64,000 bases of DNA from a bacterium. GTDB lineage: Bacteria > Patescibacteriota > Minisyncoccia > Minisyncoccales > CG1-02-41-26. Of this stretch, positions 2,869 to 34,305 are shown one piece after another (the stretch's first letter is position 1; each line of letters opens with the position of its first letter). A program made the position numbers and the translations under genes. Below the pieces are notes generated by a model. The model saw nothing but the letters and a program-made list of their open reading frames with translations. It made no database searches and was not told the origin of the DNA. The DNA lies in the NCBI GenBank assembly GCA_030648255.1, contig JAUSHZ010000007.1:24404-88403 (forward strand), read 5' to 3'.

Positions 2869-3085
2869 GTTAGAAGCTGTGTGAATTTTTAAATTTAATG
2901 ATTTGAAAATTCATTACAGATTCTTACACCCCGTTAAGTGCGAGCGATTAGCAAGCTACTTAACTGGGGTTTGTTTGTATTTCTATCCACACCCCAGTGA
3001 AGTAGAATTTGAGTACAAATTCACTTCACGGGGTAAATTCCGCTTGCCAATCGCGCTTCGCCTGCTGGCTCGCACTCTTGGAGCG
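2869..3085 (-). repeat. Intergenic modular repeat copy 4 (head A, middle I, tail 4)
   Basis: Near-identical to copy 3 across the head and middle. The tail ...gcttcgcctgctggctcgcactcttggagcgTCAttta uses tca as the TGA stop of infA. Confidence 0.9.
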
Positions 3086-3304
3086 TCATTTAAGTCTATA
3101 AACTATTCTGCCTCTTTTATCATCAATAGAGGCCATTTCAACCAACACCTTATCGCCCAACAAAATTTTTATGCGATTAATTCTAAGCTTCCCGGCCAAA
3201 TGCGCCAAAACCTCGTTTCCATTTTCCAATTGAATTTTAAATAAAAGACTAGGCAAAGCCTCTACAACTTGGCCTCTTTCTCTTATTGTATTAATTTGTT
3301 TCAT
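3086..3304 (-). CDS. infA: Translation initiation factor IF-1
   Basis: 72 aa with S1-like IF-1 sequence (LENGNEVLAHLAGKLR...GDKVLVE...RGRIVYRLK). Confidence 0.9.
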   Translation of the reverse strand: MKQINTIRERGQVVEALPSLLFKIQLENGNEVLAHLAGKLRINRIKILLGDKVLVEMASIDDKRGRIVYRLK

Positions 3305-3358
3305 CTCGTTACGATTGTCTAAAATAGCAAATTATTCAAAAAAGGTCAACCCCTTTGG

Positions 3359-4738
3359 CTAGAAAACCATTTCTATCTTTATCTTATCTAGGCTTTTTGG
3401 CGCTCTTTTTATCCAAAAAGGCCAAAATTGCGTGTCCAGTCGTTCAATTTGGGGGTAGCTATTATTCAATAAAATCTCCATATCTTCTTTAGATTTTCCA
3501 GCTAAATCCGCAATTAAGGCTGTTTGGTCAATATCATTATAAAGCTTGGCATCTGTTTTTAAATTAAAAATCAAACTCCCTTTTTCCGTAATGCTGCCTT
3601 TTGGAACTACGCTTGTCGCTAAGCTTTGTTCGTATAATTTCTTTGAAGAAGATAGTTTTGTATCAATAAAGCTTTTGGCCATATCCTGCAAATCTGATCC
3701 CTTAAAAACAATTGTCTTAGCTTTTATTTTTGCATAACAATTAAATTCAGCGAGGTTGGCGCCAACAGCTTGAGAACAAGAGAACTCGGGCTCGCCATAG
3801 TCAACTGATTCTTGGTTAAAAGAAAATCCAGCGGTTGTTTGCTCCTTCAAGCCCGAAACAGCCATTTTTTTTAACTCCCTAATCAAGCTTTCTTGAGCAT
3901 TATCCATATCTCCTTGAGTTACTTGATCAACTTCTTTCTGACCCCCGCCGTCAATTTTTTCTCTTGATTCACCCCAAACATTATAGTATAAAGCTGTTCC
4001 TGTTAATCCTGGAATAGAAAACTTAGCAGGGGCTATATTATATTCCTCTCCCTCCTGATCAGCGACAACCTGAACCTCTGTAATGCTTGGGGTTAATTTT
4101 CCATTAAACAATGTGGCTTGGGGCAAAGAAATCTTATTTTTTGCCCGATAAACCTTTCCATCTTTTGATGATATAAATCTTGTTCCTGCTTTTAAGTTTA
4201 AGGGCATTGGGGGATTAATATTATTGTAAACAAATATAGCGCCCGTTGCCCCAGATTGTTCTGTTTCTTTTCCAGTTGACTTAAATGTTTCCCATTTCTC
4301 TACTTCTTTTTCAATTACATTTCCGGGAATAATCTTTTTTTCAAAATCGATTTGCGCTTGAGAAAAAGAAACTTGAATCTCGTCTTTAATTGTAATTGGC
4401 TCTAATAGCGGTTTCACGCTTATTTCTGCTTTTGCCTGCATCGTTAAATATAAAAAGGCTCCCCCTAAAAGCAAAATGGCTACACCAATAACTATGGGAA
4501 TTTTTAGAGCAAGTCTTGGTAAAGTAAAAGAAACTCGAATTTCTTTTTTTCCCTTGCCACGTCGGAGTTCCGCAGGAACGGAGGCGGGTCTTTCTTTTTT
4601 CACCTCCCCCTTCTTCATCCCCTTTCTTGTAGGTGATTTTTTTTGAGGCTTAGTTGAAGCTAAAACAATTGGAAATTGTTCCTCTGTTTCTTCTGCTTCT
4701 TCCTCATCTGGATTTGTTATATCAATAATTTGCTTCAT
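3359..4738 (-). CDS. Hypothetical membrane-anchored protein: acidic then basic N-terminus, one TM helix, ~380-aa extracytoplasmic domain
   Basis: 459-aa ORF. The TM segment is IPIVIGVAILLLGGAFLYL. No recognisable family. It sits inside the r-protein operon. Confidence 0.5.
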   Translation of the reverse strand: MKQIIDITNPDEEEAEETEEQFPIVLASTKPQKKSPTRKGMKKGEVKKERPASVPAELRRGKGKKEIRVSFTLPRLALKIPIVIGVAILLLGGAFLYLTMQAKAEISVKPLLEPITIKDEIQVSFSQAQIDFEKKIIPGNVIEKEVEKWETFKSTGKETEQSGATGAIFVYNNINPPMPLNLKAGTRFISSKDGKVYRAKNKISLPQATLFNGKLTPSITEVQVVADQEGEEYNIAPAKFSIPGLTGTALYYNVWGESREKIDGGGQKEVDQVTQGDMDNAQESLIRELKKMAVSGLKEQTTAGFSFNQESVDYGEPEFSCSQAVGANLAEFNCYAKIKAKTIVFKGSDLQDMAKSFIDTKLSSSKKLYEQSLATSVVPKGSITEKGSLIFNLKTDAKLYNDIDQTALIADLAGKSKEDMEILLNNSYPQIERLDTQFWPFWIKRAPKSLDKIKIEMVF

Positions 4739-28366: not shown

Positions 28367-29317
28367 TTACTTACACTGCTGGGGTTTCACAGAGGTGCAG
28401 GTCAATGTTCCGTCAAGTGCTGTGCACCAAGTAATTCCTGCTTTGTCTGTATCTCCAATTCCCAAACAGCCAGTCAACGCTCCACTTCCTATCATAACTG
28501 TTGTCGAAGCAGAAGACGACACCTCCAAATTATACGCCGGCGTTGTCGTCCCAATCCCGATATTACCCTTCAATATTGTTTTCGTAATACTAGTATTTCC
28601 TAAAGTTACAGAATTGCTGCCATTGCCTATAGCACTCGCTCCTATTACTATTTCATTGGTATTCCCGTCTGCTCCAGCCATTGCGTTATAACCCTCATAA
28701 ACAGAGTTACTGGAAGTTGTATTGGCGGTAACACCATCGGCAATATAAACACCAGCCTTCGTGCCATTGGCGGTGTTTTGATAACCAGTATTATAGTAGA
28801 GAGCCTGCATACCGTTAGCGGTATTTTGATAACCAGTAGTGTTTGAGAAAAGAGCCTGCATACCGTTAGCGGTATTGTAATCGCCAGCAGTATTAGAATA
28901 AAGGGCATACACGCCATTAGCTGTATTTGTATATCCTGTAGTGTTAGAGTAGAGAGATCTATAACCAACAGCAGTATTATAACCCGCTTCATTTGTACTG
29001 GCTGTTGAACTTGCCATCCCCGCTTGATAGCCAACAAAAGTATTGTATAAGGATACATCATAATGACCTGCCTGGTAGCCAATATTAGTTTTAAAGCCAA
29101 TATTATTAAAATCAATTAGATCAGTAACCGCTATACCAAGAGAGGTTAGATATGTAGTAGTAGTTGTAGCTAATGTGCTAGTACTAAAAACATCTAGAGC
29201 TCCCCCAATAGAAACATTATTACCAATTGTGGTAACAGCTTGGGCGACTATAACTACGCAAAAAACCGTTGTTATGACGCTCACTACTACAGTAAAAATT
29301 TGCTTTTTATTATTCAT
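28367..29317 (-). CDS. Secreted repeat protein with T-rich N-region and ~19-aa tandem repeats (GYQNTANGMQALYSNT...)
   Basis: N-terminal signal/TM segment. Five or more degenerate tandem repeats are visible at both the DNA (about 57-60-nt period) and protein level. The C-terminus is Cys-containing. Confidence 0.6.
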   Translation of the reverse strand: MNNKKQIFTVVVSVITTVFCVVIVAQAVTTIGNNVSIGGALDVFSTSTLATTTTTYLTSLGIAVTDLIDFNNIGFKTNIGYQAGHYDVSLYNTFVGYQAGMASSTASTNEAGYNTAVGYRSLYSNTTGYTNTANGVYALYSNTAGDYNTANGMQALFSNTTGYQNTANGMQALYYNTGYQNTANGTKAGVYIADGVTANTTSSNSVYEGYNAMAGADGNTNEIVIGASAIGNGSNSVTLGNTSITKTILKGNIGIGTTTPAYNLEVSSSASTTVMIGSGALTGCLGIGDTDKAGITWCTALDGTLTCTSVKPQQCK

Positions 29318-29448
29318 AGCTTCTTCATTCTTAATTTTTTAGTTTATATCCTATACTACCTTTTACACTTAGTCAAACAAAAAACTAACACTTTTTGTTA
29401 GTTAAATTTTTACTTCACTTTACCCGCGGTCGCCGGTATTTTGAAGCA

Positions 29449-29610
29449 TTGACAAATGACTTTGAAATTTGCTATTATTTAAATAACCTGCTGGATGCCT
29501 TAGTGACCACCGCTCGTAATTGACGGTCTGAGCTAAGGATTACTTGGGCACAGACCCAAGTCGATCCCTGCAGAACGAAGCCCGCGGCTATTTAAGCCGT
29601 GGTTTTCGTT
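29449..29610 (+). ncRNA. Candidate sRNA with consensus-like promoter and intrinsic terminator
   Basis: TTGACA (29449-29454), 18 nt, TATTAT (29473-29478). About 120 nt of transcript with stems ccttag...ctaagg and cttggg...cccaag. Terminator ccgcggct-attta-agccgtgg plus ttttcgttt. No ORF. Confidence 0.45.
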
Positions 29611-30103
29611 TATCTGAAGAAAAAATGTCTAAAACATTATTGGCTTTTACTACAACATCTGGCTTTCTTTCACCTCGGAAAACAGCGATGGCCTCTTGAT
29701 GCGCTTTACTTTTCTTGCCTATTTGGCTAAAAGACACCTTTGGCGATTTAATTTTATTTTTATCAAACAAAGAAAGTAAGATGCTTCTAATTACGGCTTC
29801 GTGACCTGGGTATTCTCTATCAATAATTAAAGAATCAATTTTTTCGTTTTTAATTAGTAAAAATACTAAACCAGCAAAAATTCTAAATACAAAATTTTTG
29901 TGGGGCCTGTCTATCTCTCGCATAACAATTAAAACCTTTCGTTTTTCTTTAGCGCTAATCAAAAGAGTTCTCGCCTTACCATTAGCAAAACAAACTACCG
30001 TTAGTTTCCTAGTATCTTCAACTTTTCCTGATTGATCAATTTCTATAGGCATAAAGTTATCATAATTTATTCTAATTCTAACATAAGGATTTTTACAAAA
30101 CAA
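29588..30103 (-). CDS. Hypothetical protein
   Basis: 171-aa ORF with no recognisable motifs. Confidence 0.4.
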   Translation of the reverse strand: MFCKNPYVRIRINYDNFMPIEIDQSGKVEDTRKLTVVCFANGKARTLLISAKEKRKVLIVMREIDRPHKNFVFRIFAGLVFLLIKNEKIDSLIIDREYPGHEAVIRSILLSLFDKNKIKSPKVSFSQIGKKSKAHQEAIAVFRGERKPDVVVKANNVLDIFSSDKRKPRLK

Positions 30104-31401: not shown

Positions 31402-31686
31402 ATGGCAAAAGTATGTACAATATGTGGCAAGGGCTCATTAATGTTTGGAAAATTAAACAAGTTAAGGGGAAAATATAACCCAGCCCCAAAAGTAAGAAAA
31501 TACCCAAACCTTCAATGGCTAACTGTGCCAAAAGATGTTCGCAATAAAAAATTCACTAAGCTTGCTGGCCAAAGAATCGAGGCCTGTACTAAGTGTATTA
31601 AAACTTTATCTAAGCCCGTGCGACAGAAAAAGCAAAAAGAATCTCCAAAAGAAGAAGTAAAAGAACCCGCAAAAATCGGGGCATAG
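31402..31686 (+). CDS. rpmB: 50S ribosomal protein L28 with K/E-rich C-terminal extension
   Basis: Starts MAKVCTICGKGSLMFGK...NPAPKVRKYPNLQ (L28 signature). The ORF track starts 15 codons early. Confidence 0.8.
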   Translation: MAKVCTICGKGSLMFGKLNKLRGKYNPAPKVRKYPNLQWLTVPKDVRNKKFTKLAGQRIEACTKCIKTLSKPVRQKKQKESPKEEVKEPAKIGA

Positions 31687-31764
31687 TATATCAGTATTAT
31701 GCAGGGCTGGGGGTCCTGTGAGCTGGGTGCGATTCCCAGTGCCCCGACTGTAAAGCCCGCCAAA

Positions 31765-33462: not shown

Positions 33463-34305
33463 TTATGAAAAATCTGTTAAAAACTTGATTTGGTTTGCTT
33501 GTTGCACATTAAAGTTTATTTTATTTTTGATAAATTCCAAACGATATTCTGGAGAAATTTCCCCGCCATTTGCCAACCTATCTAAAATCATTTGATAATA
33601 TTTAGGATGTATTTCACAAGAAACAAAATCTCTCTTAAGTTCTTTACATTTTAGTAGCTCTGAACCACTCCCACCAAACAACACAAAAATATTGTCGCCT
33701 TCTTTGGTGCTTGATTTTATCAACATTTCAACTAAGCTCAAAGGTATTTGGCAAGAATGAAAAGTTTTATCTTTAGAAACATTTTTAACTAAATCAAAAT
33801 AAAACCAAGAGTATGGCATCCTTCCAGCACTTCCATTTTTAATTCTTCCCTGTATTCTTTTATCGGTTGGATTTTGATAGGGTAAAGCAACTTGATCTTT
33901 ATAAAAATTATTATTTTTTGTTTTTGTAGCGTGTAAAATAACTCTATGGGCAGTGGTAAATTTTTTATCGCTATGGCCAATATTTGAGTTATAAACCCAA
34001 ACATAGTCATTTACTAAAAAGGCATTGTCGTCTAGAAATTTTACTCTTAAATAGGCATTTTGTTTTGGGTAATTCATCATAAATAAATTCCCTGTCGGTT
34101 TTAAAACCCTCATACATTCTTTCGTAAGCTCAATATACCAATCAATATACTCATTCCATTTAGCGGTAAATTTTTTACCAGCATAATTTATGCCCACATT
34201 ATAATCTGGGTCACCATATACCATATCAACCGAATTATCTGGCATTTTCTTTAGAGTAACTAGAATATCGTCATTAAAAATTTTGTTTATAAAATTTTCT
34301 ATCAT
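33463..34305 (-). CDS. DNA methyltransferase, beta-class N4/N6 (DPPY-like DPDY then FGGSGS)
   Basis: Motif IV-like VYGDPDYNVG lies N-terminal to the AdoMet motif VLFGGSGS. This is the ParB-less PF01555 architecture. Confidence 0.7.
   Translation of the reverse strand: MIENFINKIFNDDILVTLKKMPDNSVDMVYGDPDYNVGINYAGKKFTAKWNEYIDWYIELTKECMRVLKPTGNLFMMNYPKQNAYLRVKFLDDNAFLVNDYVWVYNSNIGHSDKKFTTAHRVILHATKTKNNNFYKDQVALPYQNPTDKRIQGRIKNGSAGRMPYSWFYFDLVKNVSKDKTFHSCQIPLSLVEMLIKSSTKEGDNIFVLFGGSGSELLKCKELKRDFVSCEIHPKYYQMILDRLANGGEISPEYRLEFIKNKINFNVQQANQIKFLTDFS

What the first reader, a model, noticed from the sequence alone, without database searches (positions are those of the whole stretch)
29449..29610. 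Promoter-terminator-bounded candidate sRNA #1
Near-consensus sigma70 promoter (TTGACA-18-TATTAT) followed by ~120 nt with two well-formed hairpins and a canonical intrinsic terminator. The terminator also serves the convergent gene 29588..30103. There is no ORF and no match I can assert to SRP, 6S, tmRNA or RNase P consensus motifs.
Basis: seen in the sequence. Interest (0 to 1): 0.5.

Follow-up and report, generated by a model that had tools for sequence, protein, structure and literature searches.

The report
Structured sRNA paired with RNase-H-like gene
The flagged stretch is a real, conserved, highly structured small RNA gene that always sits tail-to-tail with a gene for a small uncharacterised RNase-H-like protein. 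The pair recurs in hundreds of uncultured bacteria, resembles the enigmatic "DUF3800 RNA" modules, and is in no RNA or protein family database searched here.

Summary
A near-consensus extended -10 promoter (29449-29478) drives a predicted RNA of about 125 nt (about 29485-29610) that ends in an intrinsic terminator.

The RNA folds as a closing helix P1 around a long hairpin (P2/P3, 29498-29538) and a short hairpin (P4, 29542-29561). It matches no Rfam family at the gathering score.

It is nevertheless a real RNA class:
- Covariance models built from it find it at the same place in 56 of 80 genomic loci, and about 70 by eye.
- In each case it lies directly 3' of, and convergent with, homologues of the 154-aa protein at 29588-30052(-).
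- The promoter is conserved.
- 24 of 27 base pairs show compensatory changes.
- A search starting from the RNA found the gene next door in 22 of 26 metagenome contigs.

The protein has no Pfam, NCBIfam or PADLOC hit. Its predicted fold is RNase HII-like, the same top structural match as the window's true DUF3800 protein, which carries its own convergent DUF3800-V RNA at 48983-49080.

Best reading: a self-contained RNA-protein module in which the RNA is the protein's cognate ligand, probably an inhibitor or antitoxin-like partner. It is analogous to the DUF3800 RNA motifs but is not a member of any of them. The function is inferred, not shown.

The parts
29449..29454 (+). -35 box TTGACA of the sRNA promoter
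   Evidence: scores the promoter 11/12. A TTGAC box is conserved at the same distance upstream of the RNA in 31 of 33 type-1 loci (counted by eye) and in most other loci.
29470..29478 (+). Extended -10 box TGcTATTAT
   Evidence: A -10 box is conserved in related loci.
29485..29610 (+). Predicted sRNA transcript, about 125 nt. The 5' end is inferred as about 7 nt after the -10 box; the 3' end is in the U-tract.
   Evidence: Inferred from the promoter and terminator geometry. No expression data.
29488..29496 (+). P1 5' strand (CUGC-U-GGAU), the closing helix of the three-way junction
   Evidence: MFE fold. CM R2 matches 29488-29575 at 69.2 bits. P1 is 95% paired, and 6 of its 7 pairs show changes on both sides.
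29498..29538 (+). P2/P3 core hairpin: CCUUAG-UGACC-ACCG[CUCGUAAUUGA]CGGU-CUGAG-CUAAGG. It has conserved internal loops and a UAA-containing apical loop.
   Evidence: CM R3 scores 40.7 bits, E = 2e-8, the only hit in the window at E below 1. P2 is 98% paired and P3 92%. Conserved unpaired nucleotides are UG, UAA and U.A.
29542..29561 (+). P4 hairpin (ACUUGGG-CACAGA-CCCAAGU). Its sequence varies but its structure is conserved.
   Evidence: All 7 pairs show compensatory changes.
29564..29573 (+). P1 3' strand (AUCC-CU-GCAG)
29574..29610 (+). Separate intrinsic terminator: stem 29582-29602, extended by AACGAAG/UUUUCGU, with the U-tract from 29603. In most relatives this element is absent and P1 followed by a U-run is the terminator.
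   Evidence: Comparison with relatives. The only relatives seen to share the extra hairpin are L001 and L096.
29588..30052 (-). Partner gene: a 154-aa protein of an unannotated family with motifs IDQSGK, IDxEYPGHE and IGKKSxAH and a predicted RNase HII-like fold. Its stop codon lies inside the sRNA terminator.
30069..30098 (-). Promoter-like site of the partner gene (TTGTAA-18-TAGAAT, 9/12), leaving a leader of about 10 nt
   Evidence: Consensus match only; it is weaker than the sRNA promoter.

Best explanation
The locus is a two-gene RNA-protein module.

A strong sigma-70 promoter transcribes a structured sRNA of about 90-125 nt. It has a closing helix P1, a conserved P2/P3 hairpin with fixed internal-loop and apical-loop nucleotides, and a variable hairpin P4. 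It terminates tail-to-tail at the stop codon of a gene for a 154-aa RNase HII-fold protein.

I infer that the RNA is the specific ligand of that protein. The protein recognises the conserved single-stranded nucleotides of the P2/P3 hairpin and the junctions, and the two form a ribonucleoprotein.

The most likely role of the RNA is to hold a potentially harmful nuclease in check or to regulate it. That would make it an antitoxin-like partner, functionally akin to type III toxin-antitoxin RNAs or to the msDNA that restrains DUF3800 effectors in type VII retrons. On this reading the module is an accessory, horizontally moving element, probably toxin-antitoxin or defence related.

Shown here:
- the RNA is conserved, structured and strand-specific;
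- it is linked to the gene, and the two are inherited together;
- the protein model has an RNase HII-like fold with invariant D78, E80 and H118 and nearly invariant D6.

Inferred: transcription, direct binding, nuclease activity and the antitoxin-like role.
For: (1) Conservation and structure. CM R2 finds the RNA in 33 genome loci and in all 26 metagenome contigs retrieved with the RNA pattern. 93.4% of cells are paired, 24 of 27 pairs show double changes, and the covariation score is 0.651 against 0.244 when shuffled. Slid controls give 26-46% paired.

(2) Strand. G.U outnumbers A.C by 46 to 12.

(3) Linkage from the protein side. In 80 loci fetched through the protein, the RNA lies directly 3' of the gene on the opposite strand. 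It is found in 56 loci by CM and in about 70 by promoter, closing stem and U-run. The RNA's 3' end usually falls within -38 to +16 nt of the stop codon.

(4) Linkage from the RNA side. An RNA-pattern scan of metagenomes gave 26 contigs, and 22 carry the gene convergent and adjacent.

(5) Co-inheritance. The RNA variant tracks the protein clade on a neighbour-joining tree.

(6) Conserved unpaired nucleotides. UG (98-100%), UAA (85-94%), U.A in the 3' internal loop, and junction U and C. Cis-antisense pairing or termination cannot explain these.

(7) Module behaviour:
- Flanking genes are not conserved between loci.
- Five MAGs carry two loci each.
- L022 is an island holding two such modules, two DUF3800-type genes (one with a convergent DUF3800-II RNA) and an ORF that looks NYN-like by eye.
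- In two loci the protein is fused to a DNA methyltransferase.

(9) Literature. DUF3800 proteins are associated with structured RNAs followed by terminators (PMC5737381) and act as retron type VII partners (PMC7736814).

(10) Guide RNA unlikely. There is no long variable single-stranded segment; the 5' leader is only about 3-8 nt.
Against: - There are no expression, binding or activity data. All sequences come from MAGs or metagenomes.
- The catalytic-type motif is D-Q rather than the D-E of RNase HII and DUF3800, so the protein may not be a nuclease.
- The strictly convergent, 3'-abutting geometry equally suits an antisense mechanism.
- Four of 26 RNA copies are orphans without the gene next door, so the RNA can persist, and perhaps act, without a cis partner.
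- No PADLOC hit and no phage or plasmid copies, so a defence or mobile-element role is only circumstantial.
- The CM alignments are fitted to the model, and the custom E-values are rough.
Confidence: 0.55

Rival explanations
1. Cis-antisense regulator, with a geometry like type I toxin-antitoxin systems. The sRNA is transcribed convergently into the 3' end of the gene. The mRNA must read into the sRNA gene, so its 3' UTR is fully complementary to the sRNA. Duplex formation would then trigger RNase III-type decay or alter translation, as in Bacillus txpA/RatA and bsrG/SR4 (own knowledge).
For: - Convergent orientation at every locus where both the RNA and the gene were found.
- The RNA's 3' end overlaps or abuts the stop codon, usually within -38 to +16 nt.
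- No terminator for the gene is called on its own strand, so read-through into the sRNA gene is likely.
- The sRNA promoter (11/12 plus TG) is much stronger than the gene's (9/12).
Against: - Antisense pairing in cis needs neither a conserved three-way-junction fold nor conserved unpaired nucleotides across phyla.
- The overlap with the coding sequence is short or absent.
- Orphan RNA copies with intact promoter and structure exist.
- The protein is a 154-aa soluble alpha/beta protein, not a small membrane peptide.
- There is no extra complementarity to the rest of the mRNA.
Confidence: 0.2
2. A divergent member of the Rfam family DUF3800-V (RF02964). On this view it is homologous to the RNA at 48983-49080 and simply too diverged to reach the threshold.
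For: - A weak full-length match to the DUF3800-V model: 16.4 bits, E = 2.6, at 29467-29561.
- The same genomic geometry: a structured sRNA convergent with the 3' end of an RNase HII-fold gene.
- By eye, both have a hairpin of the form stem, GUG-type 5' internal loop, stem with a UAA loop, CUKAR 3' internal loop, stem.
Against: - The score is far below the gathering score of 37.4 bits.
- No DUF3800-family hit at gathering score at the RNA site in 40 related loci, and none at E up to 10 at that site in 14 loci.
- Models built from this RNA, full length (R2, filters off) and core hairpin (R3, filters off), do not detect the DUF3800-V copy in the window at E up to 10.
- The architectures differ. 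DUF3800-V has an extra helix and no P4.
- The partner protein is not PF12686.
- A loose descriptor of the shared hairpin matches by chance about 3.8 times per 64 kb.
Confidence: 0.1
3. A trans-acting regulatory or housekeeping sRNA whose function is unrelated to the neighbouring protein. The adjacency would then reflect shared inheritance only.
For: - It has its own strong promoter and terminator.
- Four orphan copies lack the gene.
Against: - 22 of 26 RNA-first loci, and at least 56 of 80 protein-first loci, keep the pair in the same geometry across Patescibacteria and Chloroflexota, although the flanks are unrelated.
- The RNA type follows the protein clade.
- The distribution is sporadic and multi-copy, which is unlike a housekeeping RNA.
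Confidence: 0.08
4. Not an RNA gene at all: a structured bidirectional terminator or 3' UTR element of the convergent gene, with a chance promoter match.
For: - Promoter-like matches are at chance density in this AT-rich DNA.
- The element sits at the gene's 3' end.
Against: - The -35 and -10 boxes are conserved at a fixed distance in nearly all loci.
- The G.U over A.C bias shows that the structure is selected on the strand opposite the gene.
- The U-run follows P1 on the sRNA strand.
- P2, P3 and P4 with conserved loops go far beyond what termination needs.
- Orphan copies exist without the gene.
Confidence: 0.03
5. A guide RNA for an RNA-guided nuclease, in the manner of omega RNA/TnpB or Argonaute.
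For: - The RNA-protein pairing is obligate.
Against: - There is no variable single-stranded guide segment. The variable parts are base-paired (P4, P1) and the 5' leader is about 3-8 nt.
- The protein has only 154 aa and a single domain.
- The RNA is on the opposite strand and is not at a transposon end.
Confidence: 0.04

Closest known systems
DUF3800-associated RNA motifs (DUF3800-I to -XI; Weinberg et al. 2017, PMC5737381), especially DUF3800-V (RF02964)
   Same: - Structured sRNA-like motifs of unknown function that are tied to one protein family with an RNase H2-like fold.
[quoted passage not shown]
- They are not in 5' UTRs.
- In this window DUF3800-V (48983-49080, +) is convergent with the 3' end of a PF12686 gene (49116-49784, -), the same geometry as the finding. 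In L022 a DUF3800-II RNA sits the same way.
- A UAA-containing loop is present, which the authors also noted as a recurring feature of the 11 motifs.
   Different: - No Rfam DUF3800 model reaches threshold on this RNA or at the RNA site of the relatives scanned.
- Reciprocal CMs do not find DUF3800-V.
- The architecture differs: a three-way junction with P4.
- The partner protein is not PF12686. It has no HMM hit, D-Q instead of D-E, and AH instead of QxxD.
- The orientation here is fixed and convergent, whereas DUF3800-I was reported on either side and in either orientation.
Type III toxin-antitoxin systems (ToxIN and CptIN type; own knowledge)
   Same: A protein enzyme acting on nucleic acid is paired with a dedicated, structured, highly expressed RNA that is presumed to bind and neutralise it. 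The modules are small, self-contained, sporadically distributed and sometimes multi-copy.
   Different: - Type III antitoxins are tandem repeats upstream of the toxin in the same operon, and the toxin processes them. Here the RNA is single-copy, convergent and has its own promoter.
- The protein fold is RNase HII-like, not ToxN or Kid-like.
- No toxicity or binding has been shown.
Type I toxin-antitoxin pairs with convergent 3'-overlapping antisense RNAs (B. subtilis txpA/RatA, bsrG/SR4; own knowledge)
   Same: A convergent sRNA gene with its own strong promoter terminates at or inside the 3' end of the partner gene.
   Different: - The partner is a 154-aa soluble RNase-H-fold protein, not a hydrophobic peptide of fewer than 60 aa.
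- The RNA has a conserved tertiary-type architecture and conserved loop nucleotides.
- The overlap with the coding sequence is minimal.
Type VII retrons (reverse transcriptase, msDNA and a DUF3800 effector; PMC7736814)
   Same: An RNase H2-like accessory protein is genetically coupled to a structured non-coding nucleic acid in a putative toxin/antitoxin-like defence module.
   Different: There is no reverse transcriptase nearby. The partner is a plain RNA, and the protein family is different.
RNase HII / RNase HIII (PDB 1io2, 4py5, 2d0a)
   Different: - Sequence identity is only about 13%.
- Glutamine replaces the second catalytic carboxylate.
- The protein is smaller (154 aa).
- It is an accessory gene linked to an RNA, not a housekeeping gene.

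Membership tests
Rfam RF02964 DUF3800-V RNA | Covariance-model score at or above the gathering score (37.4 bits) | tested here: not met
   16.4 bits, E = 2.6, at 29467-29561. No hit at the gathering score. The true member at 48983-49080 scores 41.9 bits.
Rfam RF02964 DUF3800-V RNA | Shared architecture, so that a model of one detects the other | tested here: not met
   R2 (full length, filters off) and R3 (core hairpin, filters off) do not hit 48983-49080 at E up to 10.
DUF3800-associated RNA motifs as a class (Weinberg 2017) | Located next to a gene encoding a Pfam PF12686 (DUF3800) domain | tested here: not met
   The neighbouring protein and 52 relatives give no PF12686 hit at E up to 1. 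hhalign against a DUF3800 alignment aligns only the N-terminal motif, probability 0.6%.
DUF3800-associated RNA motifs as a class (Weinberg 2017) | Conserved structured RNA, not in a 5' UTR, often with a 3' Rho-independent terminator, associated with an RNase H2-like protein | tested here: met
Any other Rfam 15 family (including SRP, 6S, tmRNA, RNase P, drum, skipping-rope) | Gathering-score hit at the RNA site | tested here: not met
   None in the window and none at the RNA site in 40 related loci.
Pfam PF12686 DUF3800 (protein) | N-terminal DE motif and C-terminal QxxD motif (PMC7736814), with an HMM match | tested here: not met
   The family has D6-Q7 and A117-H118 instead. No HMM match.
RNase H-like superfamily, type 2 (fold level) | A beta1-3/alpha/beta4/alpha/beta5 core that superposes on RNase HII, with conserved acidic residues at the ends of beta1 and beta4 | tested here: met
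Type III toxin-antitoxin | RNA antitoxin made of tandem repeats upstream of the toxin, on the same strand and separated by a terminator | tested here: not met
   A single RNA copy, convergent and downstream of the gene. Only L078 has two tandem RNA genes.
Type III toxin-antitoxin | The RNA binds and inhibits a toxic endoribonuclease | not testable with these tools
   Needs toxicity, co-purification and activity assays.
Type I toxin-antitoxin (3'-overlap class) | The toxin is a small hydrophobic peptide, and the antisense RNA base-pairs with the toxin mRNA | tested here: not met
   The partner is a 154-aa globular alpha/beta protein. Overlap with the coding sequence is usually within -38 to +16 nt. 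Pairing with a read-through 3' UTR is possible but untested.
Intrinsic (Rho-independent) terminator | G+C-rich stem-loop followed by a U-run on the transcribed strand | tested here: met
   29582-29602 plus UUUUCGUUU on the + strand only. In relatives, P1 followed by a U-run takes this role.

The most novel reading that the evidence does not exclude
This RNA and the roughly 150-aa RNase-HII-fold protein define a previously unrecognised and widespread two-component RNA-protein system. The protein family has about 1200 clusters at 50% identity, and homologues occur in MAGs labelled Patescibacteria, Chloroflexota, Omnitrophota and DPANN archaea. In this reading a dedicated structured RNA controls, or is required by, a nuclease. 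That would be a new kind of RNA-based toxin-antitoxin or defence module. It would also offer a minimal model that could finally explain what the eleven DUF3800 RNA motifs do.
Probability: 0.3. Interest if true: 0.8.

Novelty: new variant of a known kind. Interest (0 to 1): 0.6.

Why it matters
The DUF3800 RNA motifs were singled out in 2017 as structured RNAs with "sophisticated" features and no functional hypothesis. They remain unexplained in the held literature.

This finding adds a further RNA class that is absent from Rfam 15 and a further partner protein family that is absent from Pfam, NCBIfam and PADLOC. The logic is the same but the system is simpler: a 154-aa single-domain protein, an RNA of about 85-125 nt, a fixed geometry, clear covariation, and RNA and protein variants that are inherited together.

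That makes the open question directly testable. One can co-express the two parts, test for toxicity and rescue, pull down the RNA, mutate the conserved loops, and solve the complex.

Practical consequences:
- The RNA deserves an Rfam entry.
- The protein deserves a family model. At present both go unannotated in thousands of CPR and Chloroflexota MAGs.

Tried and rejected
- **Rfam scans.** The whole window at gathering score, and 29250-29750 at E up to 10, gave only sub-threshold noise plus a 16.4-bit DUF3800-V match. Scans of 40 related loci at gathering score and 14 at E up to 10 gave nothing at the RNA site.
- **Homology to DUF3800-V.** I tested this with my own models (R2, R3, filters off) and found no hit.
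- **Hand-written hairpin descriptor.** A descriptor for the apparently shared hairpin did match the DUF3800-V copy. It also matches about 3.8 times per 64 kb in Markov-simulated sequence and misses the window's own RNA, so I discarded it as evidence.
- **Automatic core extraction.** This needed two rounds. Only the clean cores were used for R3.
- **Protein family libraries.** Pfam, NCBIfam, PADLOC and PDB sequence searches gave no meaningful hit. hhalign against DUF3800 aligned only the N-terminal motif.
- **Mobile-element check.** tblastn against phages and plasmids gave no match. IMG/VR gave a single locus.
- **Antisense check.** RNAduplex of the sRNA against its own mRNA showed no enrichment over the coding region (p = 0.53). 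An apparent signal in the 5' region (p about 0.003) involved sequence upstream of the predicted transcription start and was disregarded.
- **Apparent second family member.** ORF 33463-34305 looked like a second family member in the clustering. It is a DNA methyltransferase, linked only through two fusion proteins.
- **Unavailable resources.** The afdb50 fold library was unavailable. The supplement of Weinberg 2017 and one 2026 preprint were not held.
- **Literature.** Searches found no prior description of this RNA or protein family.

Full report
**1.

The sequence has TTGACA at 29449-29454, an 18-nt spacer ending in TG-C, and TATTAT at 29473-29478. That scores 11 of 12 with a TG extension and is the best promoter-like site between 28000 and 31500. 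A terminator-like hairpin at 29582-29602 (8 pairs, 6 G-C) followed by TTTTCGTTT is called on the + strand only.

Folding 29480-29612(+) gives -56 kcal/mol, z = -6.2, and none of 200 dinucleotide shuffles is as stable. The minus strand folds less well. They are enclosed by a helix (29488-29496 with 29564-29573), so the body is a three-way junction. An extended terminator stem (29574-29610) follows.

Promoter-like and terminator-like matches are not enriched locally: 11 against 10.8 expected, and 5 against 3.0. The local pattern alone would not be convincing. The comparative evidence below is what makes the case.

**2. It is not a known RNA family.**

At gathering scores the window holds only a tRNA (31677-31747) and a DUF3800-V RNA (48983-49080, 41.9 bits). 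At E up to 10 the candidate gets only noise plus a weak full-length match to DUF3800-V: 16.4 bits against a threshold of 37.4.

**3. The neighbouring gene is the key.**

The DUF3800-V RNA lies convergent with the 3' end of a PF12686 (DUF3800) gene at 49116-49784(-). The candidate has the same geometry relative to ORF 29588-30103(-). The likely start of that ORF is ATG 30052, giving MPIEIDQSGK... and 154 aa.

This protein has no Pfam, NCBIfam or PADLOC hit. It does have 173 relatives in a word-indexed search. A full profile search finds 1208 cluster representatives at E up to 0.001, of which 871 are at 1e-10 or better. Most are stand-alone proteins of about 145-160 aa.

Conserved motifs are IDQSGK, IDxEYPGHE and IGKKSxAH. 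K37, F59, D78, E80, Y81, A117 and H118 are invariant, and D6 and Q7 are nearly invariant.

**4. The RNA is conserved with the gene.**

I fetched 80 genomic loci that encode relatives of the protein. They come from MAGs labelled Patescibacteria/CPR, Chloroflexota, one Omnitrophota and two DPANN archaea. Some MAG labels are clearly unreliable.

blastn and nhmmer with the candidate RNA hit 14 of these loci. Every hit lies directly downstream of the gene on the opposite strand, even where protein identity is only about 45-55%. Reading those regions shows four recurring features:
- a TTGACA...TAnAAT promoter;
- a short leader;
- P1 (typically GGUUGGA/UCCAACC);
- the strongly conserved hairpin GCCUUAGUGACCACCG-UCGUAAYUG-CGGUCUKAGCUAAGG, a variable second hairpin, and then a U-run directly after P1.

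So in most relatives P1 plus the U-run is itself the terminator. Among the relatives read, only L001 and the orphan copy in L096 share the window's separate terminator hairpin.

A covariance model with my hand-set structure (R1) found 26 matches. The rebuilt model R2 found 34, all at that site. Among those 34, the RNA's 3' end usually lies -38 to +16 nt from the stop codon, and TTGAC is present upstream in 31 of 33 loci by my count.

**5. The structure is under selection.**

On 56 matches (47 distinct sequences), 93.4% of cells form standard pairs and 24 of 27 pairs show changes on both sides. The covariation score is 0.651 against 0.244 +/- 0.012 in shuffles (0 of 500 reach it). When the partners are slid by 1-3 columns, only 26-46% of cells pair. 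A smaller set gave the same picture.

The alignment is fitted to the model, which flatters these numbers, but the margin is large. Independent MFE folds of individual sequences also give the same architecture.

G.U pairs outnumber A.C mismatches 46 to 12, so the structure is selected on the sRNA strand and not on the gene strand.

Unpaired nucleotides are conserved too:
- the P1/P2 junction UG (98-100%);
- UAA in the apical loop (85-94%);
- U.A in the 3' internal loop (89-94%);
- a junction U and a junction C (94% each).

**6. A wider family.**

Most loci without an R2 hit still carry a promoter, a closing helix (often GAUCGGG/CCCGAUC) and a U-run at the same place. Their core has the same layout, P2, CGACC, P3, loop, P3', CUUAA, P2', with or without a P4.

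A core-hairpin model (R3, from 33 loci) hits the expected site in 42 loci, 23 of them not found by R2. In L022 and L078 its only hits are additional copies away from that site. Together the two models cover 56 of 80 loci, and about 70 by eye.

On a neighbour-joining tree of the proteins, the window-type RNA is confined to two protein clades and the other type to the rest. RNA and protein are therefore inherited together.

**7. The association holds from the RNA side.**

A scan of metagenome contigs for the RNA pattern ACCACCGYTCGTAAYTGRCGGTCT returned 26 contigs. Twenty-two have the gene convergent and adjacent, 29-92 nt from the core to the gene's 3' end.

Four are orphans with intact promoter, fold and terminator but a different gene, or none, next door.

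**8. The protein.**

DUF3800 is described as an RNase H fold with a rearranged active site (PMC10910872). Its DE and QxxD motifs are described in PMC7736814. The present family has DQ and AH at those positions instead. I therefore treat it as a distinct family of the same fold class.

D6 in strand beta1, D78 at the end of beta4 with E80 just after it, and H118 in the helix after beta5 occupy canonical RNase-H active-site positions. This is inferred from topology and not from a superposition.

**9. Context.**

Flanking genes are not conserved between loci. Only L001 (Ca. Paceibacterota; 80-86% DNA identity) is syntenic, with the module next to rpsL-rpsG-fusA. Five MAGs contribute two loci each.

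L022 is an island holding the following:
- a DUF3800-type gene (assigned from its IDESG motif) with a convergent DUF3800-II RNA;
- a second DUF3800-like gene;
- two members of the present family, each with its RNA;
- an ORF that looks NYN-like by eye, which I did not test.

In L049 and L068 the domain is fused in frame to a DNA methyltransferase. There are no copies in the phage or plasmid collections, and one in IMG/VR, which also has an RNA candidate.

**10. Mechanism.**

Shown:
- a strand-specific, structured sRNA gene preceded by a conserved promoter;
- obligate-looking linkage and co-inheritance with an RNase-HII-fold protein gene;
- behaviour as a self-contained, sporadically distributed and sometimes multi-copy module.

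Inferred: the RNA is the protein's cognate ligand, and most likely restrains or regulates a nuclease. That would be an antitoxin-like role, akin in logic to type III toxin-antitoxin systems and to retron type VII, where a DUF3800 protein accompanies the msDNA and reverse transcriptase (PMC7736814).

The main argument for binding over pure antisense is the conservation of specific unpaired nucleotides and of a three-way-junction fold across phyla. Cis-complementarity does not require either. Orphan copies point the same way.

The main rival is a type-I-like antisense mechanism. It is favoured by the strictly convergent, 3'-abutting geometry and by the absence of a terminator for the gene on its own strand. 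I cannot exclude it, nor a combination of the two.

A guide-RNA role is unlikely because there is no variable single-stranded segment.

**11. Comparison and novelty.**

The closest known things are the eleven DUF3800 RNA motifs of Weinberg et al. 2017. They are structured, often followed by a terminator, and tied to an RNase H2-like protein. The authors stated that no specific hypothesis for their function was apparent (PMC5737381).

Membership in DUF3800-V fails on three counts:
- the gathering score;
- reciprocal model searches;
- the identity of the partner protein.

The RNA works like those motifs in genomic logic but is a separate RNA class with a separate protein family. My literature searches found no description of either.

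I rate it a new variant of a known kind, of moderate to high interest, because it gives a minimal and tractable system for an unexplained class of RNA-protein modules.

**Caveats.** There is no expression or biochemical evidence. All data come from MAGs and metagenomes. The E-values of the custom models are rough.

Noticed in passing
window 48983-49784: A second RNA-protein module of the same logic. A bona fide DUF3800-V RNA (RF02964, 41.9 bits, + strand, 48983-49080) is convergent with the 3' end of a PF12686 DUF3800 gene (49116-49784, - strand). Immediately upstream of the RNA lies a divergently transcribed TrmB-type regulator gene (48216-48956, - strand).
   Followed up: partly
L022 1-5183 (Ca. 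Uhrbacteria MAG): An island of four RNase-H-like genes. It holds a DUF3800-type gene (265-870, assigned from its IDESG motif) with a convergent DUF3800-II RNA (853-922, -), and a DUF3800-like gene (1397-1969). It also holds an IDQSGK-family gene (2252-2698) with its RNA (2696-2776, -), and a paralogue (4061-4510) with an RNA core at 4531-4570(-). Between them lies an ORF (3074-3604) that looks NYN/LabA-like by eye; I did not test this.
   Followed up: partly
L049 1322-2944 and L068 1325-2941 (Chloroflexota MAGs): The IDQSGK domain is fused in frame to the C-terminus of a DNA methyltransferase with a DPPY motif, about 540 aa in total. The convergent RNA is still present downstream. This hints at a DNA-directed or restriction-modification-like context.
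   Followed up: partly
L094, L096, L098, L100 (metagenome contigs): Orphan copies of the sRNA with intact promoter, fold and terminator but no partner gene next door. In L094 and L098 a class I SAM methyltransferase takes the convergent position. L096 keeps the window-type extra terminator hairpin with no gene after it.
   Followed up: partly
L078 about 2921-3150: Two tandem copies of the sRNA gene, each with its own promoter and U-run, downstream of a single protein gene.
   Followed up: no
window 28367-29317 (-): A 316-aa ORF with an N-terminal hydrophobic segment and Asn/Thr/Gly/Tyr-rich repeats (YxNTAxG) and no Pfam hit. It lies between rpsL and the module, in a segment with no detectable counterpart in the otherwise syntenic relative L001, so it is a lineage-specific insertion or a divergent gene.
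   Followed up: partly
window 33463-34305 (-): A stand-alone N4/N6-type DNA methyltransferase (DPDY motif), 25-28% identical to the methyltransferase part of the L049 and L068 fusion proteins. It lies 3.4 kb from the module.
   Followed up: partly
L071, L072 (DPANN archaeal MAGs) and L081 (IMG/VR contig): Homologues of the protein in two archaeal MAGs have a TATA-box-like element (TTTATATA / TTTATAA) and a U-run on the opposite strand downstream of the gene, which suggests an archaeal version of the RNA gene. The structure is unclear. The single viral-collection hit also has a promoter plus a longer RNA candidate closed by GAUCGGG...CCCGAUC.
   Followed up: partly
window 29372-29407: A short inverted repeat (CTAACA-CTTTT-TGTTAG) lies in the divergent intergenic region between the sRNA promoter and the 316-aa ORF. 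It got only a noise-level CRISPR-repeat hit (17.4 bits). It may be an operator or a small hairpin.
   Followed up: no
L007 245-381 and 1966-2043: A tmRNA hit lies about 100 nt upstream of the IDQSGK gene, and a fragmentary match to archaeal LSU rRNA (positions 1166-1243) lies about 1 kb downstream, in a contig labelled Saccharibacteria. Several MAG taxon labels in the locus list (for example "Gammaproteobacteria" and "Planctomycetales" for CPR-like contigs) look unreliable.
   Followed up: no
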